Assembly: GCA_910585045.1 (NCBI GenBank)
Contig: CAJUCD010000006.1
Location: 12,580-76,579 of the forward strand
Direction: 5' to 3'
Source of the DNA: an uncultured Bacilli bacterium
GTDB taxonomy: Bacteria > Bacillota_I > Bacilli_A > RF39 > UBA660
DNA length: 64,000 nt
Positions 2,664 through 30,726 of the stretch are shown one piece after another; within the stretch, counting starts at the first letter, position 1, and each line of letters opens with the position of its first letter. A program made the translations under genes and the position numbers. The notes under the pieces were generated by a model, which was given only the letters and a program-made list of their open reading frames with translations, did no database searches and was not told where the DNA came from.

Positions 2664-2688
2664 CTTAGATATGAGGTTGGTGTATACT

Positions 2689-3435
2689 ATGAAAAAAATT
2701 GGAGGTATCGGGGTAGCCTTAATTGTATTTTTTGCAAGTTTAGGGTTAGCTAAAGCAACTTGTGATACGACAGAAATGAATAGGTTACGGAGTTTAGCAT
2801 CTAATGTTAAAACAAGTTATAAAGAGGTTTTTGAACCAATGGAGGATGGTACTTTTACTCCGCCAGATGGTCTTACTGATGAGATGATAGAAGACTATGT
2901 GGCTTATAGAACTTTGTTTGAGGTTTATATTACAAATCTTACAGAGGATTTATATATAGAAGTAAAAGATACAATTAGTGGTAAAACTACTAAGTATACT
3001 TATAAAGATTCTAATAATGGTACAATAACTATTAAGAATTATAATATAGAGGTTATAAATAAATATACAATAAGTATTTATACAACTAATACAGATTGTT
3101 CTAATTCTAAATTAAGAACGATTGAAACTAAGACACCAAGATTTAATAATTATAGTGCTTTAGATTATTGTCAAAATAATAAAGAATATTATATGTGTCA
3201 TATGTACGTTGATTATGATTTGCCACCTATGGAAGATTTTGTGAAAAAAATTAACAAGTACATAACTGATAAAGAAAAAAAACAACAACAAGAGGAAGAG
3301 GATAAAAAGAATCAAGGATTTATAGAATTTTTAAAAGAGAATAAATCAACTATTATAATTGTGTCATCAGTTATAGTTGTTGCAGGGGTAGGGGCTACCG
3401 TTGTGATTATTAGAAGACGGAGGAGAGTAGTATGA
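2689..3435 (+). CDS. secreted protein with signal peptide and C-terminal TM anchor plus RRRRR tail; first gene of the Tad-like operon
   Basis: N-terminal signal peptide (MKKIGGIGVALIVFFASLGLAKA); C-terminal hydrophobic helix followed by RRRRRVV; no LPXTG; stop overlaps the next start; the ORF-track start at 2671 is replaced by the RBS-supported ATG at 2689. Confidence 0.65.
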   Translation: MKKIGGIGVALIVFFASLGLAKATCDTTEMNRLRSLASNVKTSYKEVFEPMEDGTFTPPDGLTDEMIEDYVAYRTLFEVYITNLTEDLYIEVKDTISGKTTKYTYKDSNNGTITIKNYNIEVINKYTISIYTTNTDCSNSKLRTIETKTPRFNNYSALDYCQNNKEYYMCHMYVDYDLPPMEDFVKKINKYITDKEKKQQQEEEDKKNQGFIEFLKENKSTIIIVSSVIVVAGVGATVVIIRRRRRVV

Positions 3436-6400
3436 AAAGATTACTTAAAAGTTTTGGTTTAATTGTATTATTATTCTGTTTAACATTTTTAGAAGATGTA
3501 AATGCAGCTTCAGTTACAGTTGGAGGTTATACTGCAAATGATCCTTATAGTGGAACAGCAACTACAGGGACTAAATCATCTTCAAAGTATGCTTTGAGTG
3601 GAGTTCCTAGTAAAGCAGTTCTTAATACTCCTGGTGGGGCAAGAAGTAATTTACAATATTATTTGCATAACTTAAATGGTAAAGAAATTTATTGTATGGA
3701 TGCAGCATTAGCTTCAACTAATAAAGGATTATATGCTGGTCGTATTTTGTTTTATGAACAAAATACTTTAGAGAAAGCAGCAATAGATTCATGGACTTAT
3801 ATGTATGATATTTCTTTAATGACTGCTTTGATTAGTGGTGGTTATGCTGATTATTTCCAACATAGTTTGGCTGTTCGTACAGTATCAGCTGCTTGGGGTG
3901 CTTTACAATGGAGTACTAATAGTGATGATAAGATTCAAAATAGCGCAGCTAATAATTATTCACGTGATCAAATGTCAGCTTTTTATGGAACAGCTTATAA
4001 GTGGATACAAGAAGATTCTGAAATTCAAGAATATATTGATACAATAAATAAAGCATTACCTTCTGCAAAGGTTGGCTCTCAGTTATCTGGATATTCTGGT
4101 TATTATTGGACTGGTAATTTGGATGGAGCTAAAGCAGCATTTAAAGCAGCATTAAAAGCTTCAGCTGATCATGCATCTAAATTAGGTGGTAAATCTAATA
4201 TTAAATTTGGTACACCGATTCCAGATAGTAAAGTAGAAGAAACAGAAGATTCTAATGGTACTTTAGTTAAAAAACAAATTGAATTTAAGGCAACAGTTGA
4301 AGAATTTAAACAACAAGATGATAATCCTGCTATTTTTAAAATAGATAGTATAGCATTTGATGGTGGTTATAGTATATATGGAGCTTTAAAAGAGCCTCAA
4401 TTATCTTATGTTTCTATTGCAGGTAATACTATTTGTGAGGGTGCAGAGATTTGTGCAGCTTTTGTAGGACGCAATCTTTTAGAAGGTCTAGATTTACCAG
4501 AAAAGTTTGAAATTGTAATTAAAGTTCAAGTTGAGGGTTATAGTAAAGTTAATAATTCTGGAACTCCAATGTTAAACTGTGGAAAGCAACCTATGCCTTA
4601 TACAATAAAATATAGTTATGGTGGTGGTGGATTTAATTCTACTGGTACTAAGAGTGAGTTAGAAAATAATATTGCAATTGTTTGGCGTAATCAAAGTGAT
4701 GCTAAAGATATGCAAAGATTTGTTAGCTATGAAGGAAAACATACTCCTGATGGTTCTGGAGATGATGAGAATAATGATGAATTAACTCCAGGGGAATTAA
4801 AAGGTGAAGTTAGTTTAGTTGAAGATTGTGATTGTGATGAATTAGCAGAAGCTTGTATAGCTACTAATGATAAAAATAGTGATCCTTGTCAACAATTTTT
4901 CGATGCTGGTTGTGATGAGTGTGATGAATTAGAAGTTTTATGTGAATTAGGTGATCAAGCAGCTTGTGATCAATATGATAAAGAATGTAAAAAAATACCT
5001 GAGGATGCACTTTGCCCAACAGGAAAAACTGAAATTACAGAGTGTTGTGATGAGGCAGGAGACTTATTAATTATTGATGGAACTAATGGTTCAGGTTTGA
5101 TGGATGATCCTTATGAAATTCATGGTAATAAAGTAGAAGATATAAAATTATGTTTTGTCGATTATATAGAGGATAATAAAGATCCGATAGATGAAAAAAA
5201 TAATAAATATCAAATGTTAACTGATGATAGAGTAGTTGGAAATCCTTATTGTAAAGTTAATTGTCGTGAGGATTACGCGATAACATTCCCAACTGCTAAA
5301 AGAGTAAATGCTGGTAGATATTTTACTTTCCAAGCTAAAATGGAATCACATAAACAATGTTTTACAAGTAAAATTGATAGAGAACAGTATATTGAAGATA
5401 TGGTTAATTATTTGAAGGCGATAGAGCAAGCTTATAATACTTATCAAGAATATTATAGAGCATGGGAATTATCTGTTCCAAATCCTTCTATTCAAATTCC
5501 AACTGGATGTCAAAATGGAACTGCAGATACTTGTGCGACTATTACAGATATAGCTATTCCTGTTCAAGATGGTGGATCAGCTGGTGTGTCTGGTAATTAT
5601 ACATATGTTGGTTTGCGTTTTGATATTGATGAAGAACGTGGAGAGTTAAAGTCACCACCAACTCCTGAAAATAGAAATGCAACTCATACATTACATACTA
5701 TTTGGGGACCTGCTACTGTGTGTACAGGACAATCGTGTTATATTGATAAATTTGGAAATAAACATTGTTCTCCATGTGACGTGGCAGTTTATCCAAATTA
5801 TGAAGAAAAAACAGAACAAGATTTTAAAGATGATATGGAAAAGGTTTATACTCAAGCTAAGAGTGATTATGAATCTGCTATTCAAGGATTAAAAGAGGCA
5901 ATTAAAAACTTTAAAGGATGTAGCGAATGGGAGACTGATTATAAACCAGATCCAGAAGTAAAATACGATTATGAAGAAGATTATAGAAGTATGGCTGGAA
6001 TGCCAATTGATATGGATGGTTCATATGATGTTGAAGAAACAACTTATTCTTATTGTAGTCAAGAGTGGACTAATGATGTAACTGTTGATGTAGATAAAAC
6101 TTATGAATCATGTAAGGGTGGTTCAGGATTTAGTAGTGATACAAAGGAATCATTGTTATATATTGAAAGCTGTAGTTTAAATGGTTATAACGGTGGTTGT
6201 GTATCTTATAAAGATAATATGTCAAAAGCAATATTTAAAAAGTCAAATGCTGATGCAGCAGGAGAATATAAGCCACAAAGTATTTTCTGGAATATATATC
6301 CAGATGGAAATATTATTACTAATGGTAATACAAGTAATGGAGTATTACTTGAAGAATCATTGCCAGTAGCTCTTGATACTCGTAAAGGTGTTCATGAATA

Positions 6401-7160
6401 TAATGTTGTTGTTAATAATATTGGTGAATTTTATAAAGATGGAACACAAGGTAGATTTGTAGGAAGTAATGGTATTATTGATACTGAAATCAATTATGTT
6501 TGTTCTTATTTAGTAAATATACCTGATGCTGTTATGACTTGTGATTCAAATGGTTGTGAAGGACCAAATTGTACAAATGATTGTGTTGGACCAAATTGTG
6601 ATGACTTCGAGTGCGAAGGTGAAAATTGTGTTTCTGATTGTGTAAGTTCTGGATGTATGTATGATAAAGATTCAGGTTTAACTTATTATGAAAAAGAAGT
6701 AACTCTTGGTAATTTATTCCCTCAAGGAACAGCTGCTTCAAACTGGGATTCTAGTCAAAGCTCAAAAGCAGCCGCAACAATTAAAGAAATTGAATCTGGT
6801 GATGGAAGTTTAGATAATCCAGGAGGAAATGCTATTTTTGATCAAGAACCAATTTTAAGTATTACATTTACACCATCTATTTCTCAAGCAATTCTAAAAT
6901 ATAATGAAGATGCTGAGAGTGATGGTGGGTATTCTAATAAAACAGTTTATTGTAAAGATGTTGGTGGATATGAAAAAGTTGGATGTTACAGCGAATTTAT
7001 GGATGATTTCATAGATGGTAATATTAATGGTGTAAGTACTGCTGATTCTATTAATTCTAAAAGTTTAATTGGAAAAGATAGATCTTATCGAAGTAGTGTT
7101 GATAAATATTTCCAATTATGGGGTGCTATTAGTGATAAAATAGGCCCATCTTGGAAATAA
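3432..7160 (+). CDS. giant (1242 aa) secreted cysteine-rich acidic protein; candidate substrate, adhesin or tip protein of the Tad-like system
   Basis: Signal peptide ...EDVNA/AS; more than 60 Cys in clustered CxC, CDxC and CxGPNC modules (e.g. DCDCDELAEAC..., CDSNGCEGPNCTNDCVGPNCDDFECEGENC); no TM or anchor; GGAGGAG RBS; 4-nt overlap with the upstream gene. Confidence 0.85.
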   Translation: MKRLLKSFGLIVLLFCLTFLEDVNAASVTVGGYTANDPYSGTATTGTKSSSKYALSGVPSKAVLNTPGGARSNLQYYLHNLNGKEIYCMDAALASTNKGLYAGRILFYEQNTLEKAAIDSWTYMYDISLMTALISGGYADYFQHSLAVRTVSAAWGALQWSTNSDDKIQNSAANNYSRDQMSAFYGTAYKWIQEDSEIQEYIDTINKALPSAKVGSQLSGYSGYYWTGNLDGAKAAFKAALKASADHASKLGGKSNIKFGTPIPDSKVEETEDSNGTLVKKQIEFKATVEEFKQQDDNPAIFKIDSIAFDGGYSIYGALKEPQLSYVSIAGNTICEGAEICAAFVGRNLLEGLDLPEKFEIVIKVQVEGYSKVNNSGTPMLNCGKQPMPYTIKYSYGGGGFNSTGTKSELENNIAIVWRNQSDAKDMQRFVSYEGKHTPDGSGDDENNDELTPGELKGEVSLVEDCDCDELAEACIATNDKNSDPCQQFFDAGCDECDELEVLCELGDQAACDQYDKECKKIPEDALCPTGKTEITECCDEAGDLLIIDGTNGSGLMDDPYEIHGNKVEDIKLCFVDYIEDNKDPIDEKNNKYQMLTDDRVVGNPYCKVNCREDYAITFPTAKRVNAGRYFTFQAKMESHKQCFTSKIDREQYIEDMVNYLKAIEQAYNTYQEYYRAWELSVPNPSIQIPTGCQNGTADTCATITDIAIPVQDGGSAGVSGNYTYVGLRFDIDEERGELKSPPTPENRNATHTLHTIWGPATVCTGQSCYIDKFGNKHCSPCDVAVYPNYEEKTEQDFKDDMEKVYTQAKSDYESAIQGLKEAIKNFKGCSEWETDYKPDPEVKYDYEEDYRSMAGMPIDMDGSYDVEETTYSYCSQEWTNDVTVDVDKTYESCKGGSGFSSDTKESLLYIESCSLNGYNGGCVSYKDNMSKAIFKKSNADAAGEYKPQSIFWNIYPDGNIITNGNTSNGVLLEESLPVALDTRKGVHEYNVVVNNIGEFYKDGTQGRFVGSNGIIDTEINYVCSYLVNIPDAVMTCDSNGCEGPNCTNDCVGPNCDDFECEGENCVSDCVSSGCMYDKDSGLTYYEKEVTLGNLFPQGTAASNWDSSQSSKAAATIKEIESGDGSLDNPGGNAIFDQEPILSITFTPSISQAILKYNEDAESDGGYSNKTVYCKDVGGYEKVGCYSEFMDDFIDGNINGVSTADSINSKSLIGKDRSYRSSVDKYFQLWGAISDKIGPSWK

Positions 7161-7176
7161 GGAAGGAGTGTAATAT

Positions 7177-8625
7177 ATGAATACTTCTTATTGGGGGTAT
7201 TGGTTAGTTGCAATGGGTGTTGCTATTGTTGGACTGATGATTTCAGTACAAGGTATTACAACTAATACAGCTCAAAATTATTATGGTTTAAAAGAGGTGG
7301 TAGATGCATCTATGTTAGAGGCTATAGATGCAGCCTACTATCGTGATTATAATGAAGTTAAAATTGATAAAGAAAAATTTATGGAAGTTTTAATTAGAAA
7401 ATTGCCAACTTTTATAGGAGTAAATGAAACATATGAGCTTAATTTTTATGCTTTATATGAAGCTCCGCCTAAAGTTAGTGTAGAGATTAAAACTCATAGT
7501 GGAACTAGTTTTGTAAGTTCTAAAGATTATGATACTGTTACAAGAGTTAGTGCAGTATTACAAGTATTTAATAAAATTGATAGTGTTGGTATAGCGGATG
7601 GTGGAAGTGGTAGTTCTGGTAGTGGCGGAACTACTTCTAAACCAAGCAATGGTTCTACTAGTAATGGTAATGGTACCAATAATGGAACTGTAAATAAACC
7701 TGATACTCCTGTTGGAGGGGAAACATCTGGAAGTGGCGATGATGAAACATGTAAGTCTGGTATAACTTCTAATGAATTAAGCGGAATGCATGGAACTGCA
7801 ATGGTTGCTAAAGCTATTTATGAAAAAGCGGATTTTAAAGAAACTAGTAGAAGTGCTACACCAGGTGTTAAATTTGATATTTTAGGTGAAAATGGAAATA
7901 ATTGGGCTATTCAATATGATGGCAAATGTGGCTGGGTAGATAGCAATTATATGGCTATTAATATGGCTGAGTATATACCTAATGTTGAATTTAATATTAC
8001 TAATGCTTCGTCAAGTATTTATAAGTCTTCTGAAAAGAATATTCCTGGTTTGACAGGACAAAAACTTTATAGTAGCGAATATACTAATAGTTGGGTTCCA
8101 GGTACATTTAGTTTTGCAAAGAAATTAAAAGTAGCAGCAGCTAATGCAAAAGCAGCTGGAGATACAATTGTTGTAAATGATGCTTATAGACCAACTTCAG
8201 TTTCAAGTTTTGCTAATCAAAAATTAAAAGCATTATATAATAGTGATTCTGTTGTTCGTGAGAATATAGAGTTTAGTGTTGGTGAAAGCCTTAAGAAGCA
8301 TTCTTGGGGAATCAGCTGGTTTTTAGCTCAAAATTTATCTACACATAATACTGGTTGTGCAGTTGATGCATCTTTAAAGGGAAAAGCAATGCCTACAGCT
8401 ATGCATGAGCTTAGTACAAAAGCGATAAAATATTGGGGTCCTAGTACTTCTCATGAATCAAAAAATTATTCTGTCGGAATGAAGAATAATGTTCATGCTC
8501 AAGATTTAAGTAGATATATGATGAGTGCAGGTCTTACAGATTTAGCTTCAGAATGGTGGCATTATCAAGATAGTGCTTGTCATTCAAAGATTGGTAGTGG
8601 AGCTAATTTCTGGAGTGCAGTGTAG
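7177..8625 (+). CDS. membrane-anchored peptidoglycan hydrolase: N-terminal TM, G/S/T/N-rich linker, SH3b-like domain and M15 (VanY-like D-Ala-D-Ala carboxypeptidase) domain
   Basis: N-terminal TM helix; low-complexity GGSGSSGSGGTTSKPSNGSTSNGNGTNNG; SH3b-like GVKFDIL...WAIQYDGKCGWVDSNYM; M15 signature S-x-H-x-x-G-x-A-V-D (STHNTGCAVDASL); GGAAGGAG RBS. Confidence 0.75.
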   Translation: MNTSYWGYWLVAMGVAIVGLMISVQGITTNTAQNYYGLKEVVDASMLEAIDAAYYRDYNEVKIDKEKFMEVLIRKLPTFIGVNETYELNFYALYEAPPKVSVEIKTHSGTSFVSSKDYDTVTRVSAVLQVFNKIDSVGIADGGSGSSGSGGTTSKPSNGSTSNGNGTNNGTVNKPDTPVGGETSGSGDDETCKSGITSNELSGMHGTAMVAKAIYEKADFKETSRSATPGVKFDILGENGNNWAIQYDGKCGWVDSNYMAINMAEYIPNVEFNITNASSSIYKSSEKNIPGLTGQKLYSSEYTNSWVPGTFSFAKKLKVAAANAKAAGDTIVVNDAYRPTSVSSFANQKLKALYNSDSVVRENIEFSVGESLKKHSWGISWFLAQNLSTHNTGCAVDASLKGKAMPTAMHELSTKAIKYWGPSTSHESKNYSVGMKNNVHAQDLSRYMMSAGLTDLASEWWHYQDSACHSKIGSGANFWSAV

Positions 8626-8637
8626 AAGGAGGATAAA

Positions 8638-9450
8638 ATGGGAAATATAGTAACGACTTTTAAAAGATTCTTGTCAAATAAGAATACTGTTACAATAATT
8701 GGTGTAATGCTAGGAATAGTAGTACTTTATGTTGGTTATAACTATAGAGTTAATCATGCTATTGAGACAGTTTCAATTCCTTATGCTAAACAGTCAATTA
8801 AATCAACAGAGCAGATTACTCAGGATTTAATTGGTACAACTGAGGTTCTTAGATCTCTAGTTACAAGTAATAAAAATTTATTATCTCGTACTAATCAGGT
8901 GATAAATTCAACTGCACCTTTTTGTGTAAATGTTGGAACTAGTGTACCACAAGGAGCTTTCTTTTATAATGAGCAAGTTCTACCTTGTAAAGGTATAAAT
9001 AGTAATGCTTTAAAGGATATGCCAGATGGTTATAAAGCAGTTGCTCTTAATGTAGATCTTCAATCAACTTATGGTAATTCAATGTACCCTGGAGATTATA
9101 TTGATTTATATGTAAAAATGACAAGTGATGAAGGTAAAATTATATATGGTGAATTTATAACAAAATTACCAATTTTGGATGTACGTGACAGTAATGCTAA
9201 AAGTTTATTTTACGGATCATCTGTTAGTGGAACTCCAGCATTATTATTGTTTGCAGTTCCTCAAGAATTATATTTATTAATTAGTAAAGCTAATTATGTA
9301 GGTAGTGTAGAGTTGGTTCCAGTTCCTGGTAATGCATCTTATACTAGCGCACCAGGTGAAACAGCAGTTAAAAGCGAGTATTTAAGAAATCAAATTCTTG
9401 ATTATACTCAAGATATTCCTGATGAAGTTATACCTGATAGTGTTTCATAA
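8638..9450 (+). CDS. CpaB/RcpC-like pilus-assembly protein (N-terminal TM plus SAF-like domain)
   Basis: Single N-terminal TM; region VSIPYAKQSIKSTEQITQDLIGTTEV resembles the CpaB SAF-domain start; sits immediately upstream of the CpaF-family ATPase. Confidence 0.45.
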   Translation: MGNIVTTFKRFLSNKNTVTIIGVMLGIVVLYVGYNYRVNHAIETVSIPYAKQSIKSTEQITQDLIGTTEVLRSLVTSNKNLLSRTNQVINSTAPFCVNVGTSVPQGAFFYNEQVLPCKGINSNALKDMPDGYKAVALNVDLQSTYGNSMYPGDYIDLYVKMTSDEGKIIYGEFITKLPILDVRDSNAKSLFYGSSVSGTPALLLFAVPQELYLLISKANYVGSVELVPVPGNASYTSAPGETAVKSEYLRNQILDYTQDIPDEVIPDSVS

Positions 9451-9484
9451 ATAAAAGAATAAAGAATAAGGGAGGTGTTCATAA

Positions 9485-10579
9485 ATGAATGATGCAATAT
9501 TTTCGCAGATTGATTTTGGACCTTTAAAGGAATTTATAGATATTGATGATATTACAGATATCTCATATTCTAATGGTGGACAATTGTGGCTTAAATCTTT
9601 AACTAAAGGAGTTTATAGAGTTGAAAGACCAGAAATAAATAATCCACTGATAGAAAAGCTAGCGTTCCAATGTTCAAATGTAATGGGAAAAACATTCAAT
9701 ATGGCACACCCTTTTTTAGATGCTGAAAGTACAGAATTACGTCTTAACTTTGTTCACGATTCGATAGCTACTAATGGAGTAGCACTAGTTATTCGTAAAA
9801 CGCCAGCGAAGATTCGTCTTAATAAGGAAAAATTACTAAATGAAGAATATGTTAGAGCGGATTTATTAGATTTTCTACTTAATTGTGTACAGGGTCATGC
9901 TAATATAATTGTTAGTGGGGAAACTGGTTCTGGTAAAACAGAGCTTGTTAAGTATCTTGCTAGTACTACTAAAGAAAATGAAAAAATAATAACTATAGAA
10001 GATACTTTGGAGTTGCACTTAGATAGAATATTTCCACATCGAGATATTGTAGCGATGAAAACAAATAATATTGCTTCTTATTCGGATGTTTTAGTTACAT
10101 GTATGAGACAGAATCCAATTTGGATATTATTATCAGAGGTTCGTAGTGCTGAGGCAGTAATGGCAGTACGTAACTCAATATCTTCAGGACATCATATTAT
10201 TTCGACAATCCATTCAGATAAAGCAGCATTAATTCCAATGCGTATGTATAGTTTGATAGAGTCTAACATTGATGTTGAACAGTTTGTTACTACTATACAT
10301 AGATATGTACAAATTGGAATATATGTAAAAGGCTATATGAGTGAGAAATTAGGAAGATTTCAACGTGAAATAATGGAAATTTGTGAATTTTATGTTGATG
10401 ATGATAATAAACCGCAAGTTAATACAATATTTCAAAAAACTTTGGATGGGAAATATACTTTAAATAATCCTACAAAACATCTTAGAAGCTATTTAGCAAT
10501 TCAAGGTGTTATCTTACCAGATGATTTATTTCATATAGAAAGTAGTAATATTGGTTCTGAGATGATAGAGTCTTTGTAG
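9485..10579 (+). CDS. CpaF/TadA-family (VirB11-like) secretion ATPase
   Basis: Walker A GETGSGKTE, Walker B/Asp box WILLSEVRSAEA, His box GHHIISTIHSD; 364 aa; GGGAGG RBS. Confidence 0.85.
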   Translation: MNDAIFSQIDFGPLKEFIDIDDITDISYSNGGQLWLKSLTKGVYRVERPEINNPLIEKLAFQCSNVMGKTFNMAHPFLDAESTELRLNFVHDSIATNGVALVIRKTPAKIRLNKEKLLNEEYVRADLLDFLLNCVQGHANIIVSGETGSGKTELVKYLASTTKENEKIITIEDTLELHLDRIFPHRDIVAMKTNNIASYSDVLVTCMRQNPIWILLSEVRSAEAVMAVRNSISSGHHIISTIHSDKAALIPMRMYSLIESNIDVEQFVTTIHRYVQIGIYVKGYMSEKLGRFQREIMEICEFYVDDDNKPQVNTIFQKTLDGKYTLNNPTKHLRSYLAIQGVILPDDLFHIESSNIGSEMIESL

Positions 10580-10592
10580 AGGGAGGATTTGA

Positions 10593-11489
10593 ATGGAATT
10601 AGTTATTTTAATGGCAATAGCGTTATTTGTAATTATATATCGCAGAAATGATGGTAGTGAATCCTTTTATACTTTTATGAAATCTCAGTTTGGAATTGTA
10701 TATCAGAAATATGCTCCTTATAGTTTTCAGACTATAAGTGCAAAAATGAAAGAATTAAAACAAGAATATACAATGAAAGACTATATGATTCAAATTGTGG
10801 TATTAGGTGGTTTAGCTGGTGGTATAGCATATTTATATTTTTATAGTTTAATAATGGTTGCTGCGTATGGTGGAGTTGCAATAGCATTGATTCCATATTT
10901 GGCTTGGTTAAGAAGTAAAAGGCTTTATAGTGAGTATATATTTGAGCAAATTCAAGTTTATACAACTAATGTTATTATGGAATTTAATACAACACAAAGT
11001 TTTGTTAAATCATTAGAAGGTGTTAGAGATTCTGGTATTGTTGAAGATCCTGTTTTGGAAGATATAAAAATGATGATTAATATGTCTTATCAAAATGGTA
11101 CTATAGATGAATCTATTGAGTATTTTAATCAAAAATATCCATATTATATGGTTAAAAATATGCATCAATTGTTTTTACAAATTACCAAAGAAGGTGCTAA
11201 AGATTCTGGTGAAGCTTTAGAAAATATGAGTATGGATATAGACTCTTTAGTTGAAGGCGTTTATAGGGACCAAATGGACCGTAAACAATTTCATACTAAA
11301 TTTATAACATTTGCTTTGGTTTTATTTTTGTTAGTTTTAGTTATGCAAGTTTTATTAGGGAAAGATAGTTATTTAAAGCTTTTAGATATGTGGTATGTTC
11401 ATATAATATTACATGCTATAATTTTTATTAATTGCTTTTTCTTACTCTCAGGTGAAAAATATTATAATGATGATGTGGGGGTAGAATAA
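10593..11489 (+). CDS. TadB-like inner-membrane platform protein (T2SS-F-like)
   Basis: N-terminal TM, ~150-aa cytoplasmic domain, C-terminal TM helices; position directly after the ATPase; GAGGGAGG RBS. Confidence 0.55.
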   Translation: MELVILMAIALFVIIYRRNDGSESFYTFMKSQFGIVYQKYAPYSFQTISAKMKELKQEYTMKDYMIQIVVLGGLAGGIAYLYFYSLIMVAAYGGVAIALIPYLAWLRSKRLYSEYIFEQIQVYTTNVIMEFNTTQSFVKSLEGVRDSGIVEDPVLEDIKMMINMSYQNGTIDESIEYFNQKYPYYMVKNMHQLFLQITKEGAKDSGEALENMSMDIDSLVEGVYRDQMDRKQFHTKFITFALVLFLLVLVMQVLLGKDSYLKLLDMWYVHIILHAIIFINCFFLLSGEKYYNDDVGVE

Positions 11490-12277
11490 TGCAAATAGAG
11501 ATAGCTATTATAGCTGCGATTATTTTTTATATATTAACTAAAAGTGGTAAAATTAGTATAAGTAAATTAATTGCAGATAATGAAATGTATTTAAGAAAAT
11601 TAAAAGAATCTGATTATGATTTTTATGTAAGAGCAAAATATGGTGATTCAGTTAATCCAGATATTTTATTTAATAAGAGATTACAAAATGCTTTTATTAT
11701 TATAGCTTTGACGTTTTGTTTGCTTTTGAATAATATGTCATATGTTTATGCTTTAGTTTGTTTAATAGTAGGTTTTTTGTTCTTTAAATTAGATTATATG
11801 AATTTAAAAAGCTATTATAAAAAACATTTAAATGATATTGATACTATGCTTCCATATTATTTAAAAGGTTTAGAAATTTTAATTCAACATTATACGGTGC
11901 CAGTAGCTATTGGTAAATCAATGGAGGATGCTCCTGAGATTTTTAGAGATGGTTTAAAAAATTTAATTAATGAGATTAATGCTGGTAATGATACAATTGA
12001 ACCTTATATGGAGTTTGCAAGACAATACCCAGTTCGTGATTCAATGAGAATGATGCGTTTGTTATATCGTCTTAGTTTAGGAAGACAGGAGAGAAAGCAA
12101 GAGCAATTATTGGCTTTTTCAAAAACAATTTCTAATTTACAGCAAAAAGCAAGAGAAACTAAATATAAAAACCGTTTGGATAAAATGGAAGGTAAGACAA
12201 TGAGCATGCTTATTACTACTGGATTAGGAGTTATGGTACTTTTGATATTAGCAGTAATAATGTTAATGGGAATTTAG
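11489..12277 (+). CDS. TadC-like inner-membrane platform protein (T2SS-F-like)
   Basis: Same TM / cytoplasmic domain / TM architecture; start overlaps the previous stop (ATGA). Confidence 0.55.
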   Translation: MQIEIAIIAAIIFYILTKSGKISISKLIADNEMYLRKLKESDYDFYVRAKYGDSVNPDILFNKRLQNAFIIIALTFCLLLNNMSYVYALVCLIVGFLFFKLDYMNLKSYYKKHLNDIDTMLPYYLKGLEILIQHYTVPVAIGKSMEDAPEIFRDGLKNLINEINAGNDTIEPYMEFARQYPVRDSMRMMRLLYRLSLGRQERKQEQLLAFSKTISNLQQKARETKYKNRLDKMEGKTMSMLITTGLGVMVLLILAVIMLMGI

Positions 12278-12358
12278 TTTACATTTAATGTGTTAATGAC
12301 TTGACATTTAATATTAGTTAAGATAGAATTATATTATATAGGAAAGCGAGGAAAGTGT

Positions 12359-12790
12359 ATGTTAATAATGGCAGCGCCTAAGGTGTGTTCTGATTTACAA
12401 GAAGTATGGCAAATTGTGGGATGGATATTATGGGTTTTTAAAATTGTAATTCCAATTATAATTATTATATTTGGTATGATAGATTTAGGAAAAGCTGTAG
12501 TTGCTAGTAAAGATGATGAAATAAAGAAATCTATTAAATCATTAGCTATGAGAGCAGTTGCAGGTGTAATAATATTCTTTATTCCAGCTTTAGTTGCAGC
12601 TATCTTTGGTATGGTGGATAGTTTCCAAGAAGTTGAAGGAGAATATGCTGTTTGTGAATTATGTATTAAGAATCCTGGTAAATGCGGTAGCAATGCTGGA
12701 TCTGGTAATAATGATCGTGGAACTAAGGAGTCTTGTACTAGTGCTGGCGGAGTTTGGGATAGTAAAACAAATACTTGCCAAGGCATTTAA
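12359..12790 (+). CDS. small two-helix membrane protein with cysteine-rich C-terminal tail; candidate pilin/major subunit (VirB2/TrbC-like topology, not Flp-like)
   Basis: Two hydrophobic helices (IVGWILWVFKIVIPIIIIIFGMI and AVAGVIIFFIPALVAAIFGMV) separated by a charged loop; tail CELCIKNPGKCGS...CTSAGGVWDSKTNTC; last gene before the operon terminator. Confidence 0.5.
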   Translation: MLIMAAPKVCSDLQEVWQIVGWILWVFKIVIPIIIIIFGMIDLGKAVVASKDDEIKKSIKSLAMRAVAGVIIFFIPALVAAIFGMVDSFQEVEGEYAVCELCIKNPGKCGSNAGSGNNDRGTKESCTSAGGVWDSKTNTCQGI

Positions 12791-12810
12791 TAATATTAAT
12801 TTAAGAAAAT

Positions 12811-12838
12811 ATTCCAGAAATGGAATTTTTTTGTTTTT
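12811..12838 (+). terminator. rho-independent terminator ending the Tad-like operon
   Basis: attcca-gaaa-tggaat hairpin followed by TTTTTTTGTTTTT. Confidence 0.65.
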
Positions 12839-12891
12839 AATGCATAAAAGTATTGACTTTAAACATAATATTTACTATAATTTAGTAGTAC

Positions 12892-12967
12892 TGCTCGTTT
12901 AGCTCAGTCGGTAGAGCGCACGGCTGTTAACCGTTAGGTCGTAGGTTCGAGTCCTACAACGAGCGCC
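12892..12967 (+). tRNA. tRNA-Asn (anticodon GTT)
   Basis: Cloverleaf with 7-bp acceptor gctcgtt/aacgagc, anticodon loop ctGTTaa, T-loop ggttcgagtcc, 3' CCA. Confidence 0.9.
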
Positions 12968-12978
12968 ATTTAGTATAT

Positions 12979-13017
12979 TAACAAACCTAGATAATTACTG
13001 GGTTTGTTTTATTTTTG
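12979..13017. repeat. tRNA-trailer hairpin element, copy 1 (second copy at 47877-47914)
   Basis: aacaaacc-N13-ggtttgtt followed by TTATTTTTG; 36 of 38 nt identical to 47877-47914. Confidence 0.55.
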
Positions 13018-24449: not shown

Positions 24450-25190
24450 ATGGTGGCAGTTATGAAAAAAGTGTTTATGGATTCGGCAAAAATTATTAAA
24501 GATAATATGATGAAAATTGATGAAAAGAATTACCGGGGATATAATGTTACTCATTTTAAAGTAGATTATTCTAATGAAAAGGTTTTAAAAAGAATAAGGG
24601 GAGATTATTTTTCAATTAATTTTGATTATGTTTCTTTACATAAGCAGGAAAAAATGTTAAAAAAAGAAGTAATGAAAATATTGAAAGTGTTTTTTATGGG
24701 AGAAAGTGCCCAAAAACCGTTAATAGTTGGTTTAGGTAATTCTAGTATTACTTGTGATAGTTTAGGAGTTAATACTACTAATAAGGTGATGGCTACTAAT
24801 CATTTTAATGATTTTTTAAATATTCCAAAAGTAGCCTTGTTTAACCCAGAAGTTACAGAGAAGACAGGAATAAGTTCTTTTAGTTTAATTGAAATGGTTG
24901 TTAAAAAGTTAAATCCTACTATAATTATTATGATAGATTCTTTGGCAACTAATAATGAAATGTATTTAAATAATTGTATTGAAATTAATAATACAGGAAT
25001 TATTCCTGGTAGTGCTATTAAAGAAAATAAAAAAATAGATGCTAAAACTTTTGGAATTCCTGTAATTGCAATAGGAGTTCCTTTAGTAATTGAAAGAAAT
25101 AAGAATCTTTTTACGACACCTAATGTTAAAGAAATAATAGATTTAACAAGTAAAATAATAAGTGATGCTTTAAATGATTTGTTTTTTTAA
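24450..25190 (+). CDS. gpr: germination protease (spore protease GPR), shortened C-terminus
   Basis: PLIVGLGNSSITCDSLG, IDSLA and GIPVIAIGVPLVIE align with GPR catalytic blocks (LIVGLGNWNVTPDALGP ... GVPVIAIGVP); conserved position next to rpsT and spoIIP. Confidence 0.7.
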   Translation: MVAVMKKVFMDSAKIIKDNMMKIDEKNYRGYNVTHFKVDYSNEKVLKRIRGDYFSINFDYVSLHKQEKMLKKEVMKILKVFFMGESAQKPLIVGLGNSSITCDSLGVNTTNKVMATNHFNDFLNIPKVALFNPEVTEKTGISSFSLIEMVVKKLNPTIIIMIDSLATNNEMYLNNCIEINNTGIIPGSAIKENKKIDAKTFGIPVIAIGVPLVIERNKNLFTTPNVKEIIDLTSKIISDALNDLFF

Positions 25191-25300
25191 GTAAATAAAT
25201 TGCATTTTTTTCTGATTAATGATAATATATTTATAGGATTAATTTTCTATATTTCTTTTTAGGATATATATGTAATTGAAATCCAAAAGGAGGTAGGAAA

Positions 25301-25474
25301 ATGCAAGACAAAAAATTAGTTTGTAAAGATTGTGGCGAAGAATTTGAATTTTCAGAAGCAGAACAAAGATTTTATCAAGAACGTAATTTATCAGAACCTA
25401 AGAGATGTAAAGCTTGTCGTGATAAAAAACGTGCTAATAATGAAAAAAATGATAATAAAAAATATGCAGCTTAA
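25301..25474 (+). CDS. 57-aa CxxC...CxxC zinc-ribbon protein
   Basis: AAAGGAGGTAGG RBS; MQDKKLVCKDCGEEF...KRCKACRDKKRANNEK; followed by a terminator. Confidence 0.5.
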   Translation: MQDKKLVCKDCGEEFEFSEAEQRFYQERNLSEPKRCKACRDKKRANNEKNDNKKYAA

Positions 25475-25490
25475 TTAAAGCTGTTTTTTT
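25467..25490 (+). terminator. rho-independent terminator
   Basis: cagctt-aatta-aagctg hairpin followed by TTTTTTT. Confidence 0.55.
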
Positions 25491-25586
25491 GTGCTTTTAA
25501 AAGAGATAAACTAGTTTTAAAATATGAACGACATTCTTTGACATAATTTTAAGGTTTGTTTTTATATAATATTAATGGTGAATGAT

Positions 25587-26516
25587 ATGCGGAGATTTAT
25601 AACTAGAAAAGTTAAGAAAAAAATAAGATATAAGTTTTTTTATAATGTTTGTTTAGTTGGAATACCTTTAATTATTATATCTAATATTTTAATTATGATG
25701 TTTTTTAATATATTTAGTGAAGATTCAGTTTTAGATATATTAGTTAGTAGTTCTTATGGAAATATTTATAATAATAGTAATAATAATTTTTTTTATAAAA
25801 ACTTGTATGGATTTGATTTAAAAAAAGACAAAGCAGTTTTTAGTGAAAGTAATATTAATGATTTATTGCTTGATTTTAAAGAGAATGAGCCTTTAATTTA
25901 TATATACAATACTTTTCAAACTAATAAATATAAAAGTAATTATTATAATTCTTATAATATTAATCCTGTTATAACTCAAGCTAGTAGAATTTTACAAGAA
26001 TATTTAAAATTACAAAAAATTAGTTCATATCTGGAAACAAAAAGTGTTGCTAAAGTATGTAAAGATAATAATATATCTTATGATAAAAGTTATAGATGTT
26101 CTAGAATATTGTTAGAAGAAGCTAAAAATAATAATCATTCATTAGATTTTTTTATAGATTTACAAATGTCTGATTATAATTATGATATTACAACAGCTAA
26201 TATAGATGGTAATAGTTATGCTAAAATTTTATTTGTAGTGGGAACAGATAATGGTAATTATAGTCTAAATCAAGATTTGGCTAATTCTTTAAATGGTATT
26301 TTAGAAGAAAAGTATAAAAGTTTAGTTAGAGGAGTTAGTCTTAGAGGGGGAGAAGGCTATCAGGGAGTTTATAATCAAGATTTTAATAAAAATGTTTTAT
26401 TAATTCAAGTAGGTGGAAAAGATAATACAATAGATGAGGTTAATAGAAGTTTAAAAGCTTTATCAGAAGTATTTTATGAATATTTAAAGGGGGAAAATAA
26501 TAATGAAAATAAGTAA
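25587..26516 (+). CDS. spoIIP: stage II sporulation protein P
   Basis: N-terminal TM; PLIYIYNTFQTN and LIQVGGKDNTIDEV blocks typical of SpoIIP; classic synteny with gpr. Confidence 0.75.
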   Translation: MRRFITRKVKKKIRYKFFYNVCLVGIPLIIISNILIMMFFNIFSEDSVLDILVSSSYGNIYNNSNNNFFYKNLYGFDLKKDKAVFSESNINDLLLDFKENEPLIYIYNTFQTNKYKSNYYNSYNINPVITQASRILQEYLKLQKISSYLETKSVAKVCKDNNISYDKSYRCSRILLEEAKNNNHSLDFFIDLQMSDYNYDITTANIDGNSYAKILFVVGTDNGNYSLNQDLANSLNGILEEKYKSLVRGVSLRGGEGYQGVYNQDFNKNVLLIQVGGKDNTIDEVNRSLKALSEVFYEYLKGENNNENK

Positions 26517-26832
26517 AAAAGGAAAATATTTTTTTAGAATATTGTTTGTATTCTTATTGGTATTTGTAGCTCTTAATATTGCTTATGAAAGTGGGTATTA
26601 TGAAACTAAATCGAAAAATAAAGCAATTCTTACTAAAGATGCTATGATGAGGTTTGAAGAAGATTTAAAAAATGGTCAGATGGTAGATGTTACGAATTAT
26701 TTAGAAGAAGATGATATTGATTATTCTACTAAAGTTAGCAAAATAGGTAATAAATTGTCTAATACTGTTAGTGAATTTATGACTAAAGGTATATCAGGGC
26801 TGTTTGATGCTTTGAAAGGCTTATTTTGGTAA
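26503..26832 (+). CDS. small membrane protein, possibly YqxA-like (DUF3679)
   Basis: N-terminal TM; 109 aa; position after spoIIP matches yqxA in Bacillus. Confidence 0.35.
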   Translation: MKISKKGKYFFRILFVFLLVFVALNIAYESGYYETKSKNKAILTKDAMMRFEEDLKNGQMVDVTNYLEEDDIDYSTKVSKIGNKLSNTVSEFMTKGISGLFDALKGLFW

Positions 26833-26893
26833 TGCGTAAAAAAGTATAGTTTTTTTCTTCAATTACTAGTATAATTAATTAAGAGGTGAGTTT

Positions 26894-27982: not shown

Positions 27983-28847
27983 AGGTATTATTGTTTTAGA
28001 AGAAGCTTCATTGCTTAATAATAATACTTATAAAATTCCTAGTATATGTAAATATTTAATTACAGTTAATGAAATAGATGGTTTGATTGAACTTTTAAAA
28101 TATTTGCGAAATAATAATATCAAGTATTTTATTTTAGGGGCAGGATCTAATGTGGTTTTAGGTGATTATTTTGATGGAGCTGTAATTAAATTAAATGGTT
28201 TAAATTATGTAAATATTAATGATTTAGATGTTGTAGTTGGAGCAGGTACTATGATGGGTAGGCTCACAATGAAAACAGTAGAAGCAAATTTAACTGGTTT
28301 AGAATGGGCAATAAATATTCCAGGAACTGTTGGTGGAAGTATTGTTGGTAATGCAGGTGCCTATAATTCAGAGATGTTTGATTCTTTGGTTAGTATAAAG
28401 GTTTTAAATGATAATTTGGAGATTCAAAGTATAAAAAAAGAAGATTTAATTTATAATTATAGACATACTAATATTAAGGAATTAAAATTAGTTGTTTTAG
28501 AAGGAACTTTTAGACTTGATAAGGGTAATAAAGAAGAATCATTAGAGCTTATTAAAGATAGATGTGAGAGAAGATGTCAATCTCAGCCTCTTGATATGCC
28601 TTCTGCTGGTAGTGTTTTTAGAAATCCAGATGGAGATTATGCAGGGCGTTTAATAGAGCAAGTAGGTCTTAAAGGCAAAACTTTGGGAGGAGCACAGATA
28701 TCTTTAAAACATGCCAATTTTATTGTAAACACAGGTAGTGCTACTAGTAAAGATATTAAAAATTTGATAGAATTAGTACAAAAAGAAGTAAAGGATAAGT
28801 TTGATATAGATTTAATTGTAGAGCAAGAAATTCTAGATTGGAAGTAG
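27969..28847 (+). CDS. murB: UDP-N-acetylenolpyruvoylglucosamine reductase
   Basis: FAD-binding fold, GAGSN, LKGKTLGGAQISLKHANFIVN C-terminal MurB block; overlaps murG. Confidence 0.85.
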   Translation: MKDIKGIIVLEEASLLNNNTYKIPSICKYLITVNEIDGLIELLKYLRNNNIKYFILGAGSNVVLGDYFDGAVIKLNGLNYVNINDLDVVVGAGTMMGRLTMKTVEANLTGLEWAINIPGTVGGSIVGNAGAYNSEMFDSLVSIKVLNDNLEIQSIKKEDLIYNYRHTNIKELKLVVLEGTFRLDKGNKEESLELIKDRCERRCQSQPLDMPSAGSVFRNPDGDYAGRLIEQVGLKGKTLGGAQISLKHANFIVNTGSATSKDIKNLIELVQKEVKDKFDIDLIVEQEILDWK

Positions 28848-28850
28848 AAA

Positions 28851-30700: not shown

Positions 30701-30726
30701 AAATTTGCTAATATAGCAAACTTTTT

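What the first reader, a model, noticed from the sequence alone, without database searches (positions are those of the whole stretch)
12359..12790. Candidate pilin with VirB2/TrbC-like two-helix topology and a Cys-rich tail instead of an Flp-type prepilin
The only small structural-subunit-like gene in the operon is 143 aa. It has two long hydrophobic helices separated by a short charged loop and a C-terminal tail with five Cys. It has no class III signal peptide or G/XXXXEY Flp motif. A CpaF-type ATPase operon paired with a VirB2-like subunit would be an unusual hybrid. It might explain the absence of a TadV peptidase.
Basis: inference. Interest (0 to 1): 0.6.

Follow-up and report, generated by a model that had tools for sequence, protein, structure and literature searches.

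The report
VirB2-like pilin beside a Tad-like operon
The small gene really does encode a membrane protein of the conjugation-type (VirB2-like, type IV secretion) pilin family, but related gut bacteria show it is the first gene of a type IV secretion gene set next to the Tad-like pilus operon, not that operon's replacement pilin.

Summary
The ORF at 12359-12790 (+) is real and matches the description: 143 aa, two long hydrophobic helices, a short charged loop and five Cys in the tail. A sixth, invariant Cys sits at residue 10.

It is a divergent member of Pfam T4SS_pilin (PF18895, VirB2-like). The window protein scores below threshold (E=0.011). 26 of 30 homologues match, and one orthologue passes the curated cut-off.

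The "hybrid Tad machine" reading is mostly an effect of gene order. In related gut Bacilli MAGs the Tad-like genes are followed by two short pilin-like genes (MKEATGELN leader), two larger pilin-like genes and a TadZ-like gene. The orthologue of this gene comes next. It leads an array of up to eight T4SS_pilin-domain genes, followed by a large membrane protein, split VirB3/VirB4, a wall hydrolase and a VirD4-like coupling protein.

In the window's clade only this gene remains beside the Tad-like operon, and it keeps the same conserved promoter. VirB4 is adjacent in one clade member and on another contig in another. The 64-kb window has no VirB4, no Flp-like gene and no prepilin peptidase.

Best reading: a T4SS-family membrane or pilin component whose partners lie elsewhere or were lost. 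Co-option by the Tad-like ATPase is not excluded (about 10%).

The parts
12301..12329 (+). Promoter-like site TTGACA-17 nt-TAGAAT that serves the pilin-like gene alone
   Evidence: Matches 11 of 12 positions. An AAAAACTTGACA motif is conserved upstream of the orthologues in every locus type, whether TadC, the TadZ-like gene or unrelated DNA lies upstream.
12348..12355 (+). Ribosome-binding site GAGGAAAG, 3 nt before the ATG
   Evidence: Read from the sequence. A similar GAGG element sits upstream of the clade A orthologues.
12359..12790 (+). CDS of 143 aa: a VirB2-like protein of the T4SS_pilin (PF18895) family, of a subfamily without a signal peptide
   Evidence: ORF. PF18895 E=0.011. 26 of 30 homologues match PF18895. 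The L038 orthologue passes the curated cut-off. 663 homologues.
12359..12406 (+). N-tail, residues 1-16 (MLIMAAPKVCSDLQEV), with invariant Cys10; inferred to be extracellular
   Evidence: Net charge -1. M1-M4, P7 and C10 are conserved. The even Cys count in 117 of 118 homologues implies that C10 pairs with a tail Cys.
12407..12481 (+). Transmembrane helix 1, residues 17-41
   Evidence: Hydrophobic segment. AF2 helix 14-48 with pLDDT 84-89.
12482..12553 (+). Charged loop, residues 42-65 (DLGKAVVASKDDEIKKSIKSLAMR); inferred to be cytoplasmic
   Evidence: 6 K/R against 4 D/E. Nearly every position is invariant in 30 homologues.
12554..12616 (+). Transmembrane helix 2, residues 66-86
   Evidence: Hydrophobic segment. 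AF2 helix 52-89.
12617..12787 (+). Acidic Cys-rich tail, residues 87-143. It has an invariant C99-x2-C102-x3-P106-x2-C109 motif, then a variable extension carrying C126 and C140. Inferred to be extracellular and disulfide-bonded
   Evidence: Alignment. Cys positions and net charge -3. Low AF2 confidence, pLDDT 40-71.
12805..12838 (+). Terminator-like hairpin followed by a T-run
   Evidence: RNA fold of 12791-12850, -10.4 kcal/mol. It has too few G-C pairs for the consensus scan.
2671..7160 (+). Context: two Cys-rich exported proteins that open the upstream operon (254 aa with a signal peptide and a C-terminal anchor; 1242 aa with a signal peptide)
   Evidence: Translations. No family hits. They evolve fast: 25-46% identity across clade A while the ATPase stays at 90-95%.
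7177..8625 (+). Context: DUF5411 domain (pilin-like N-terminus) fused to a Peptidase_M15 wall-hydrolase domain
   Evidence: PF17424 7e-43 and PF01427 6e-10. N-terminal pattern shared with the pilin-like genes of relatives.
8638..9450 (+). Context: CpaB/RcpC-like protein
   Evidence: PF16976 1.1e-4 and TIGR03177 1.2e-6, both below their cut-offs.
9485..10579 (+). Context: secretion ATPase of the CpaF/FlaI/VirB11 group
   Evidence: T2SSE 5.9e-27. VirB11 2e-31 and TadA 1.3e-27. Best solved relative is CpaF at 1.2e-15.
10593..12277 (+). Context: two polytopic membrane proteins (298 aa and 262 aa) in the TadB/TadC position; family not verified
   Evidence: 5 and 4 hydrophobic segments. No T2SSF hit. 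No solved relative. No similarity to each other. The AF2 model is too poor, pLDDT 54.

Best explanation
**What it is.** The gene encodes a VirB2-like two-helix membrane protein of the T4SS_pilin family.

**Inferred anatomy.**
- It inserts as a hairpin without a cleaved signal peptide.
- Both ends face outward and the positively charged, invariant loop faces the cytoplasm.
- The N-tail Cys10 and the tail motif CxxCxxxPxxC form disulfides. The long-tail forms add one more pair, C126 with C140. Together these make a small rigid cap on the outside.

**Shown by comparison with relatives.**
- It is its own transcription unit.
- In related gut Bacilli it is the leading gene of a chromosomal type IV secretion set. 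That set holds further T4SS_pilin-domain paralogues, a large polytopic protein in the VirB6 position, VirB3-like plus split VirB4, a wall hydrolase and a VirD4-like coupling protein.
- This set lies directly downstream of a Tad-like pilus module that has its own pilin-like genes.

**In the window's clade.** The Flp-like, TadZ-like and remaining T4SS genes are gone from the locus, so the gene looks like the last gene of the Tad-like operon.

**Most likely function (inferred).** It still works as the membrane or pilin-like subunit of a VirB4-dependent apparatus, which may be reduced and encoded elsewhere. It is not the fibre assembled by the CpaF-type ATPase.
For: **Family.**
- PF18895 is the best Pfam match and spans both helices and the loop.
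- 26 of 30 homologues match it, best E 4.7e-7.
- The L038 orthologue scores 28.0 bits against a cut-off of 26.6.
- The family profile also finds the signal-peptide-bearing paralogues that sit next to the VirB6-position gene, for example L088 at 8.6e-8.

**Synteny.**
- Of 85 loci plus the window, 35 carry T4SS genes next to the orthologue. Of these, 26 also have the Flp-like/TadZ-like genes upstream, and 8 have neither Tad-like nor Flp-like genes.
- Arrays of 2-8 pilin-domain genes start with the orthologue.
- Three consecutive ORFs align end to end with the Mycoplasma ICE VirB4 model NF045975, at positions 2-96, 98-276 and 294-890. The last scores 3.4e-105.
- A CD1115-type VirD4-like protein scores 302.7 bits against a cut-off of 250.

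**The Tad-like module has its own pilin-like genes in relatives.**
- These carry a conserved MKEATGELNMTV leader followed by a hydrophobic helix.
- Their best Pfam hint is archaeal type IV Pilin_N, E=0.039.
- Of 72 metagenome loci anchored on the TadZ-like gene, 56 have the orthologue within 600 nt downstream.

**Own promoter.** The motif is conserved in all locus types.

**VirB4 in the window's clade.**
- L026 has pilin, VirB3-like, TraC-like and VirB4 directly after TadC.
- The MAG that holds clade locus L037 has VirB3-like/TraC-like/VirB4 on another contig, L086.

**Topology.** Charge distribution and the even Cys count in 117 of 118 homologues.
Against: - The 64-kb window, plus 10 kb beyond its right end, contains no VirB4, no gene in the VirB6 position, no coupling protein and no second pilin-domain gene. 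The proposed partners are therefore unseen in this organism.
- At both places where clade members keep VirB4, the window has other genes. After the pilin gene (as in L026) it has tRNA-Asn and AddAB. After the orphan T2SSE ATPase (as in L086) it has housekeeping genes.
- 42 of 86 sequences keep the gene immediately after TadC with no T4SS genes in the available downstream flank (0.5 to 10.4 kb). This could reflect selection for that linkage.
- The window protein itself is below the Pfam cut-off.
- TrbC/VirB2 PF04956 gives no hit.
- No solved pilin matches by sequence or fold.
- Many family members are fused to enzyme domains. The domain may therefore be a membrane anchor rather than a polymerising pilin.
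Confidence: 0.55

Rival explanations
1. In this clade the VirB2-like protein is the subunit, or an obligatory membrane partner, handled by the CpaF-type ATPase and the two TadB/TadC-position proteins. It would replace the Flp-like pilins, which were lost.
For: - The gene sits 81 nt after the TadC-position gene in 42 of 86 sequences, in species whose copies have diverged to 53-76% identity.
- There is no Flp-like, TadE-like or TadZ-like gene and no prepilin peptidase in the window.
- The ATPase and membrane proteins stay 90-95% and 75-91% identical, so the machine is in use and must act on something.
- The window lacks VirB4 at both sites where clade members have it.
Against: - The gene has its own promoter, and that promoter is the same where the gene heads a T4SS array.
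- Orthologues occur with T4SS genes and no Tad genes nearby.
- Relatives with the same ATPase and membrane genes have dedicated pilin-like genes.
- VirB4 is retained in at least two clade members.
- An isolated Flp-like/TadZ-like cluster exists in low-GC gut contigs (L114, L115). It may be the relocated set.
- From established knowledge of type IV filament machines: no such machine is known to assemble a two-helix hairpin subunit.
- DUF5411 remains as a candidate pilin-like substrate.
Confidence: 0.1
2. A coupling or adaptor protein. The gene sits at the seam of the two modules because it links them physically or in regulation, for example as a membrane platform shared by the Tad-like pilus and the T4SS. 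It would not polymerise into a fibre.
For: - The gene stays with either module after rearrangements: 42 sequences with Tad only, 8 with T4SS only, 18 with both.
- The cytoplasmic loop is invariant while the outside tail varies, which suggests a conserved cytoplasmic partner.
- It is the only member of the arrays that lacks a signal peptide.
- Family members fused to enzymes show the domain can serve as an anchor.
Against: - There is no direct evidence of interaction.
- Stand-alone T4SS loci with only the signal-peptide-type paralogue exist (L088, L169, L172).
- Tad-like loci without any pilin-domain gene also exist (11 of 72). Neither module therefore strictly needs it nearby.
Confidence: 0.15
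3. An orphan survivor. The T4SS was lost in this species and the protein persists with a new stand-alone role as a small disulfide-capped membrane protein, unrelated to secretion.
For: - No T4SS gene lies in the 64-kb window or in 10 kb beyond its right end.
- Clade members show progressive reduction: L026 and L086 keep only VirB3-like/TraC-like/VirB4, without a VirB6-position gene, hydrolase or coupling protein beside them.
Against: - Sequence constraint is strong and matches that of orthologues that sit in full T4SS loci: 42 invariant columns.
- Promoter and terminator are retained.
- Loss of all partners has not been shown.
Confidence: 0.15

Closest known systems
T4SS_pilin family (Pfam PF18895), the VirB2-like pilins found in arrays beside VirB4/VirB6 in Patescibacteria (Microb Genom 2025, PMC12102498; FEMS Microbiol Rev 2025, PMC12857230)
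   Same: - The HMM match spans both helices and the loop.
- Relatives have tandem arrays of 2-8 divergent pilin-domain genes next to VirB3/VirB4, a gene in the VirB6 position, a hydrolase and a VirD4-like protein. No relaxase was seen in the called genes.
- The host is a monoderm and a separate type IV-filament-like module is also present. This parallels the pairing of a type IV pilus with a T4SS described for Patescibacteria.
   Different: - The hosts are gut Bacilli MAGs, not Patescibacteria. One of them, Ca. Coprovivens, is placed in GTDB order RF39.
- This subfamily has no signal peptide. It has a conserved N-tail Cys and a CxxCxxxPxxC motif.
- The window protein scores below the Pfam cut-off.
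- In this clade the gene stands alone next to a Tad-like operon.
TrbC/VirB2 conjugative pilins of diderm T4SS (Pfam PF04956; for example Agrobacterium VirB2, F TraA)
   Same: Two hydrophobic helices joined by a short basic loop. Inferred topology with both ends outside. Linkage to VirB4 in relatives.
   Different: - No PF04956 hit even at E<=10.
- No solved pilin matched by sequence or fold.
- No long cleaved signal peptide.
- A Cys-rich tail is present.
- The host is a monoderm.
Flp/Fap pilins of Tad systems (Pfam PF04964)
   Same: Only the position, as a small gene just after the TadB/TadC-position genes.
   Different: - No Flp HMM hit and no G/XXXXEY motif.
- It has two helices rather than one, and it is 143 aa long.
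- Relatives have other short single-helix genes in the Flp position.
The DUF5411-associated CpaF systems predicted in gut Firmicutes (Nat Commun 2022, PMC9523054)
   Same: The upstream operon shares a CpaF-type ATPase, a DUF5411 protein and otherwise unrecognisable neighbours.
   Different: - That paper reports a recognisable PilC/GspF protein. Here the two membrane proteins match no family.
- In the passage I read it does not mention a VirB2-like gene or a linked T4SS.
Mycoplasma ICE conjugation genes (NCBIfam Mbov_0396 transmembrane protein and Mbov_0397 VirB4)
   Same: VirB4 of the relatives is closest to the Mycoplasma ICE VirB4 model, 3.4e-105. The best NCBIfam hit of the 143-aa protein is the Mbov_0396 model, whose name carries the tag number next to Mbov_0397.
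   Different: - The Mbov_0396 hit is weak: E=0.0077, 15.7 bits against a cut-off of 70. It covers part of a 306-position model.
- The locus here is chromosomal and syntenic across species, not an obvious ICE.

Membership tests
T4SS_pilin (PF18895, VirB2-like) | HMM match over the whole domain at or above Pfam's gathering score (26.6 bits), for the window protein itself | tested here: not met
   16.2 bits, E=0.011, residues 16-81 against profile positions 8-70 of 71. It is the top hit but below the cut-off.
T4SS_pilin (PF18895, VirB2-like) | HMM match for the orthologous group | tested here: met
   26 of 30 aligned homologues match at E<=0.01, best 4.7e-7. The L038 orthologue scores 28.0 bits, E=2.4e-6. 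Several database homologues carry a precomputed PF18895 annotation.
T4SS_pilin (PF18895, VirB2-like) | Two transmembrane helices joined by a short basic loop | tested here: met
   Hydrophobic segments at 17-41 and 66-86. The loop has 6 K/R. AF2 helices 14-48 and 52-89.
T4SS_pilin (PF18895, VirB2-like) | Encoded beside VirB4 and other T4SS genes | tested here: inconclusive
   Not met in the window: tblastn finds nothing in 64 kb. Met for orthologues in 35 of 85 related loci, and in clade member L026.
T4SS_pilin (PF18895, VirB2-like) | Cleaved N-terminal signal peptide before the first helix | tested here: not met
   The protein starts MLIM, and the first hydrophobic stretch is the domain's own helix 1. 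Paralogues in the arrays do have signal peptides.
T4SS_pilin (PF18895, VirB2-like) | Polymerises into a pilus or forms part of the T4SS channel | not testable with these tools
   No solved homologue. Needs an experiment or multimer modelling.
TrbC/VirB2 (PF04956) | HMM match | tested here: not met
   Not listed even at E<=10. Only T4SS_CagC PF16943 appears, weakly: E=1.1 here and 0.0045 in the L038 orthologue.
Flp/Fap pilin (PF04964) | HMM match; short leader ending in Gly, then the xxxxEY motif and a single hydrophobic helix | tested here: not met
   No Pfam hit at E<=10. The motif search is negative for this ORF and for every ORF of at least 30 aa in the window.
Tad/Flp-type pilus machine (the upstream operon) | CpaF/TadA-type secretion ATPase | tested here: met
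   T2SSE 94.7 bits. The best solved relatives are CpaF at 1.2e-15, then FlaI, then VirB11 at 1.9e-13. NCBIfam ranks VirB11 slightly above TadA, so the subfamily is not resolved.
Tad/Flp-type pilus machine (the upstream operon) | TadB/TadC platform proteins (T2SSF, PF00482) | tested here: inconclusive
   No T2SSF hit for the window proteins, nor for nine homologues of the 262-aa protein. No solved relative. No similarity between the two proteins. The structure model is too poor, pLDDT 54, and the fold search is meaningless. Only position, size and 4-5 hydrophobic segments fit.
Tad/Flp-type pilus machine (the upstream operon) | CpaB/RcpC | tested here: inconclusive
   PF16976 22.5 bits against a cut-off of 28.8. 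TIGR03177 28 bits against 71. The same weak hit appears in the L038 homologue.
Tad/Flp-type pilus machine (the upstream operon) | Flp-type pilin gene and a prepilin peptidase (TadV, Peptidase_A24) | tested here: not met
   None in the window. All ORFs with at least 4 hydrophobic segments were scanned and none is A24. No homologue of the relatives' pilin-like genes was found. The rest of the genome could not be searched.

The most novel reading that the evidence does not exclude
In this clade of gut Bacilli the two-helix VirB2-like protein may have been taken over by the Tad-like CpaF-type ATPase and its membrane partners. This would follow the loss or relocation of the Flp-like pilins and of most T4SS genes. 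The result would be a chimeric machine that joins parts of the type IV filament and type IV secretion superfamilies.
Probability: 0.1. Interest if true: 0.85.

Novelty: new member of a known kind. Interest (0 to 1): 0.5.

Why it matters
- A 2025 review states that Patescibacteria are unique among monoderms in their potential to make VirB2-type pili (PMC12857230). The family seen here challenges that.
- This family includes tandem arrays of up to eight T4SS_pilin-domain genes beside VirB4 and a VirD4-like protein. It shows the same theme in chromosomes of uncultured gut Bacilli, fused side by side with a Tad-like pilus module.
- It gives a concrete set of loci in which to ask what a chromosomal, apparently relaxase-free T4SS plus pilus does in these bacteria.
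- The window's clade is a natural experiment. The VirB2-like gene has been separated from the rest of the T4SS but kept intact.

Tried and rejected
- **Solved structures.** A profile search with the family alignment gave only chance hits to viral nucleoproteins.
- **TadB/TadC identity of the 298-aa and 262-aa proteins.** Pfam at E<=10, Pfam on nine homologues, PDB profiles, profile-profile comparison of the two, and AF2 plus Foldseek all failed or were uninformative. A homologue search returned only close relatives without annotation.
- **Mobile elements.** tblastn against plasmids and phages found nothing.
- **Flp-like genes or prepilin peptidase in the window.** Motif scans, tblastn with the relatives' genes and Pfam on all multi-spanning ORFs were negative.
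- **Linking VirB4 or the isolated Flp-like cluster (L114, L115) to the window's organism.** There was no overlap in DNA or protein with the window or clade loci. The 10 kb beyond the right end has no relevant gene. The left-end look-up failed because the gene call differs.
- **Lipoprotein or cleaved signal peptide.** Rejected. There is no lipobox and no n-region or h-region before Cys10, read from the sequence.
- **The Mbov_0396 hit.** I treat it as weak and do not rely on it.
Full report
**1. The observation**

The ORF at 12359-12790 on the + strand is real. It is 143 aa and starts with ATG. GAGGAAAG lies 3 nt upstream. A promoter-like site, TTGACA-17-TAGAAT, sits at 12301-12329 and matches 11 of 12 positions. 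A hairpin with a T-run follows the stop.

The protein has five parts:
- a 16-residue N-tail;
- a hydrophobic stretch at residues 17-41;
- a loop at residues 42-65 with 6 K/R and 4 D/E;
- a second hydrophobic stretch at residues 66-86;
- an acidic tail of 57 residues.

AlphaFold2 with 30 homologues gives two long helices, 14-48 and 52-89, at pLDDT 80-89. The tail is poorly defined.

The five tail cysteines are C99, C102, C109, C126 and C140. C10, C99, C102 and C109 are invariant in 30 homologues, while C126 and C140 come and go together with the long tail. Of 118 close homologues, 117 have an even number of Cys, either 4 or 6. I take this to mean that all Cys are disulfide-paired. It follows that the N-tail and the C-tail lie on the same, outer side, with the basic loop inside. 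The charge distribution agrees. This topology is inferred, not shown.

**2. The family**

Pfam's best match is T4SS_pilin (PF18895). It covers residues 16-81 against profile positions 8-70 of 71, but E is 0.011 and the score of 16.2 bits is below the cut-off of 26.6.

Three results strengthen the link:
- 26 of 30 homologues match PF18895, best E 4.7e-7.
- Several database homologues carry the precomputed annotation.
- The orthologue in locus L038 passes the cut-off at 28.0 bits.

TrbC/VirB2 (PF04956), Flp and TadE give nothing. Searches of solved structures by sequence and by fold give nothing useful.

The family is large. The profile finds 6981 cluster representatives at E<=0.001. Many carry the two-helix domain fused to a signal peptide plus an N-terminal domain, or to C-terminal enzyme domains. 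No homologue was found on plasmids or phages.

**3. The neighbourhood in the window**

Upstream lies an operon running from 2671 to 12277.

| Coordinates | Product | Evidence |
|---|---|---|
| 2671-7160 | Two Cys-rich exported proteins (254 aa and 1242 aa) | |
| 7177-8625 | DUF5411 domain fused to Peptidase_M15 | |
| 8638-9450 | Weak CpaB/RcpC-like protein | |
| 9485-10579 | Secretion ATPase; best solved relative CpaF (1.2e-15), with FlaI and VirB11 close behind | |
| 10593-12277 | Two polytopic proteins of 298 aa and 262 aa | |

I could not verify that the last two are TadB/TadC. A 2022 paper had already noted CpaF systems with DUF5411 and otherwise unrecognisable genes in gut Firmicutes (PMC9523054).

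Downstream come tRNA-Asn at 12893-12968, a lipoprotein gene on the other strand and AddB/AddA.

The 64-kb window lacks the following:
- a Flp, type IV pilin or TadE motif;
- an A24 peptidase among its multi-spanning ORFs;
- a VirB4 gene.

**4. Related loci change the reading**

I fetched 80 loci from species-representative genomes with the family alignment. I mapped all operon proteins onto them and onto five loci fetched earlier. The hosts are uncultured gut MAGs labelled Bacilli, Tenericutes, Mycoplasma sp. or Candidatus Coprovivens. Ca. Coprovivens belongs to GTDB order RF39. Two arrangements stand out. The clade labels A and B are mine.

*Clade A (the window's type).* 42 of 86 sequences have the same order as the window, with the gene right after the TadC-position gene. 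Conservation differs sharply between products:
- the ATPase is 90-95% identical;
- the 143-aa protein is 53-76% identical;
- the 1242-aa protein is only 25-40% identical.

*Clade B.* The order is as follows:
- a large Cys-rich protein, DUF5411, the CpaB-like protein, the ATPase and the two membrane proteins;
- two genes of 76-100 aa that start MKEATGELNMTV, followed by about 20 hydrophobic residues and a Cys-rich end;
- two genes of 145-204 aa that start MKEAIGGTW;
- a 330-365-aa protein with a receiver-like N-terminus and a degenerate MinD/ParA-like centre, TadZ-like by architecture;
- the orthologue of the 143-aa gene;
- one to seven further T4SS_pilin-domain genes;
- a polytopic protein of 650-985 aa in the VirB6 position, with no family hit;
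- three ORFs that align end to end with the 894-position Mycoplasma ICE VirB4 model;
- a cell-wall hydrolase and a lipoprotein;
- a VirD4-like protein that scores above the curated cut-off.

The short genes' best Pfam hint is archaeal type IV Pilin_N, at E=0.039. DUF5411 proteins share the same N-terminal pattern, MKESYWGYW. The Tad-like module therefore has its own candidate pilins in relatives, and the 143-aa gene belongs with the pilin array of a type IV secretion set.

**5. Further tests of that assignment**

- The promoter motif AAAAACTTGACA upstream of the gene is conserved whether TadC, the TadZ-like gene or unrelated DNA lies upstream. The gene is its own transcription unit.
- Eight loci have the orthologue with T4SS genes and no Tad or Flp-like genes within 4-10 kb upstream.
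- I fetched 80 JGI metagenome loci anchored on the TadZ-like gene. Of the 72 with enough downstream sequence, 56 have the orthologue within 600 nt, 5 have it further away and 11 have none.
- Within clade A, L026 has pilin, a VirB3-like gene, a TraC-like gene and VirB4 directly after TadC.
- The MAG that holds clade A locus L037 has VirB3-like/TraC-like/VirB4 on another contig, L086. That contig's neighbourhood (SpoIIP, MurG, MurB, FtsQ, QueH and an orphan T2SSE ATPase) is also present in the window at 25575-31935.
- The window has no VirB4 at either of these two sites.
- Stand-alone T4SS loci with only the signal-peptide-type paralogue also exist.
- Two gut contigs, L114 and L115, carry an isolated cluster of Flp-like, minor-pilin-like and TadZ-like genes. 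Their GC content is 25-26%. These two kinds of locus are what a scattered clade A genome would look like. I could not tie them to this organism.

**6. Mechanism**

My preferred account is that the protein is a VirB2-like membrane subunit of a VirB4-dependent apparatus.
- It inserts as a hairpin without signal-peptide cleavage.
- It has a disulfide-locked outer cap and an invariant cytoplasmic loop that probably contacts a conserved partner.

The family match and the synteny in relatives are shown. The topology, the disulfides and the continued dependence on VirB4 are inferred.

Three rivals remain:
The tight conserved adjacency in clade A keeps it alive, as does the lack of any Flp-like gene or VirB4 in the window.
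- **An adaptor** between the two modules.
- **An orphan** with a new role.

I put these at 0.10, 0.15 and 0.15, against 0.55 for the preferred account.

**7. Comparison with what is known, and novelty**

The closest known systems are the VirB2-like pilin arrays of the Patescibacteria T4SS (PMC12102498; PMC12857230).

Shared features:
- the Pfam family;
- the arrays;
- the VirB3, VirB4, VirB6-position, hydrolase and VirD4-like set;
- a monoderm host;
- the co-presence of a type IV-filament-like module.

Differences:
- the host group;
- the signal-peptide-less, Cys-capped subfamily;
- the physical fusion with a DUF5411/CpaF-type module;
- in the window's clade, the solitary position of the gene.

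The protein is a new, divergent member of a known family. The hybrid machine is not supported. The wider locus family is worth attention because the 2025 review treats such pilins in monoderms as unique to Patescibacteria.

Noticed in passing
window 12853-13008: A tRNA-Asn (GTT) gene at 12893-12968 directly follows the pilin-like gene. It has its own promoter-like site (12853-12881) and terminator (12980-13008). It marks the point where the window's gene order departs from relatives that continue into T4SS genes.
   Followed up: partly
window 30727-31935 (-): A second, full-length T2SSE ATPase (409 bits, PilB/GspE/ComGA type with C-terminal Cys pairs) has no pilin or platform genes beside it. 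The same orphan gene sits at the same place in clade A locus L086, where VirB3-like/TraC-like/VirB4 follow it. The window has a tRNA methyltransferase gene there instead.
   Followed up: partly
L038 13615-16310; also L026 10466-13096 and L086 9158-11785: VirB4 is split into three consecutive ORFs (about 105, 185 and 594 aa). They align end to end with positions 2-96, 98-276 and 294-890 of the 894-position Mycoplasma ICE VirB4 model NF045975.
   Followed up: partly
L061 8134-16734; L042 9968-16377; L079 7968-13471: Tandem arrays of 6-8 genes carry a T4SS_pilin domain. Most have a signal peptide and a large N-terminal domain before the two-helix domain. The last members end in a conserved FGLYDLSTCGIG-type motif.
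   Followed up: partly
L114 8423-10996 and L115 (human gut metagenome contigs, GC 25-26%): An isolated cluster holds two MKEATGELN pilin-like genes, two larger pilin-like genes and the TadZ-like gene. Housekeeping genes flank it, with no Tad ATPase upstream and no pilin-domain gene downstream. This is the complement of the window's arrangement. It could not be linked to the window's organism.
   Followed up: partly
window 7177-8625, compared with L004-L085: The DUF5411 gene carries a Peptidase_M15 wall-hydrolase domain in the window (482 aa) and in some clade members. In most others it is a stand-alone protein of 135-140 aa. Clade B has no such fusion and has a separate large hydrolase after VirB4.
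   Followed up: no
window 2671-12277, compared with clade A loci: Conservation inside one operon is very uneven. The ATPase is 90-95% identical and the membrane proteins 75-91%. The CpaB-like protein is 51-66% and the two exported Cys-rich proteins 25-46%. This looks like a fixed motor with fast-evolving surface parts.
   Followed up: no
window 24450-26516; L173 11982-18420: Sporulation genes are present (germination protease, SpoIIP, SpoVIF, SpoIVA). The organism therefore looks like a spore-former, although database labels for its relatives include 'Tenericutes' and 'Mycoplasma sp.'.
   Followed up: no
L114 12019-12332 and L014 16323-16640: A noncoding-looking stretch of about 320 nt is 76% identical between an otherwise unrelated metagenome contig and a clade A locus. 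It may be a conserved RNA gene. I did not examine it.
   Followed up: no
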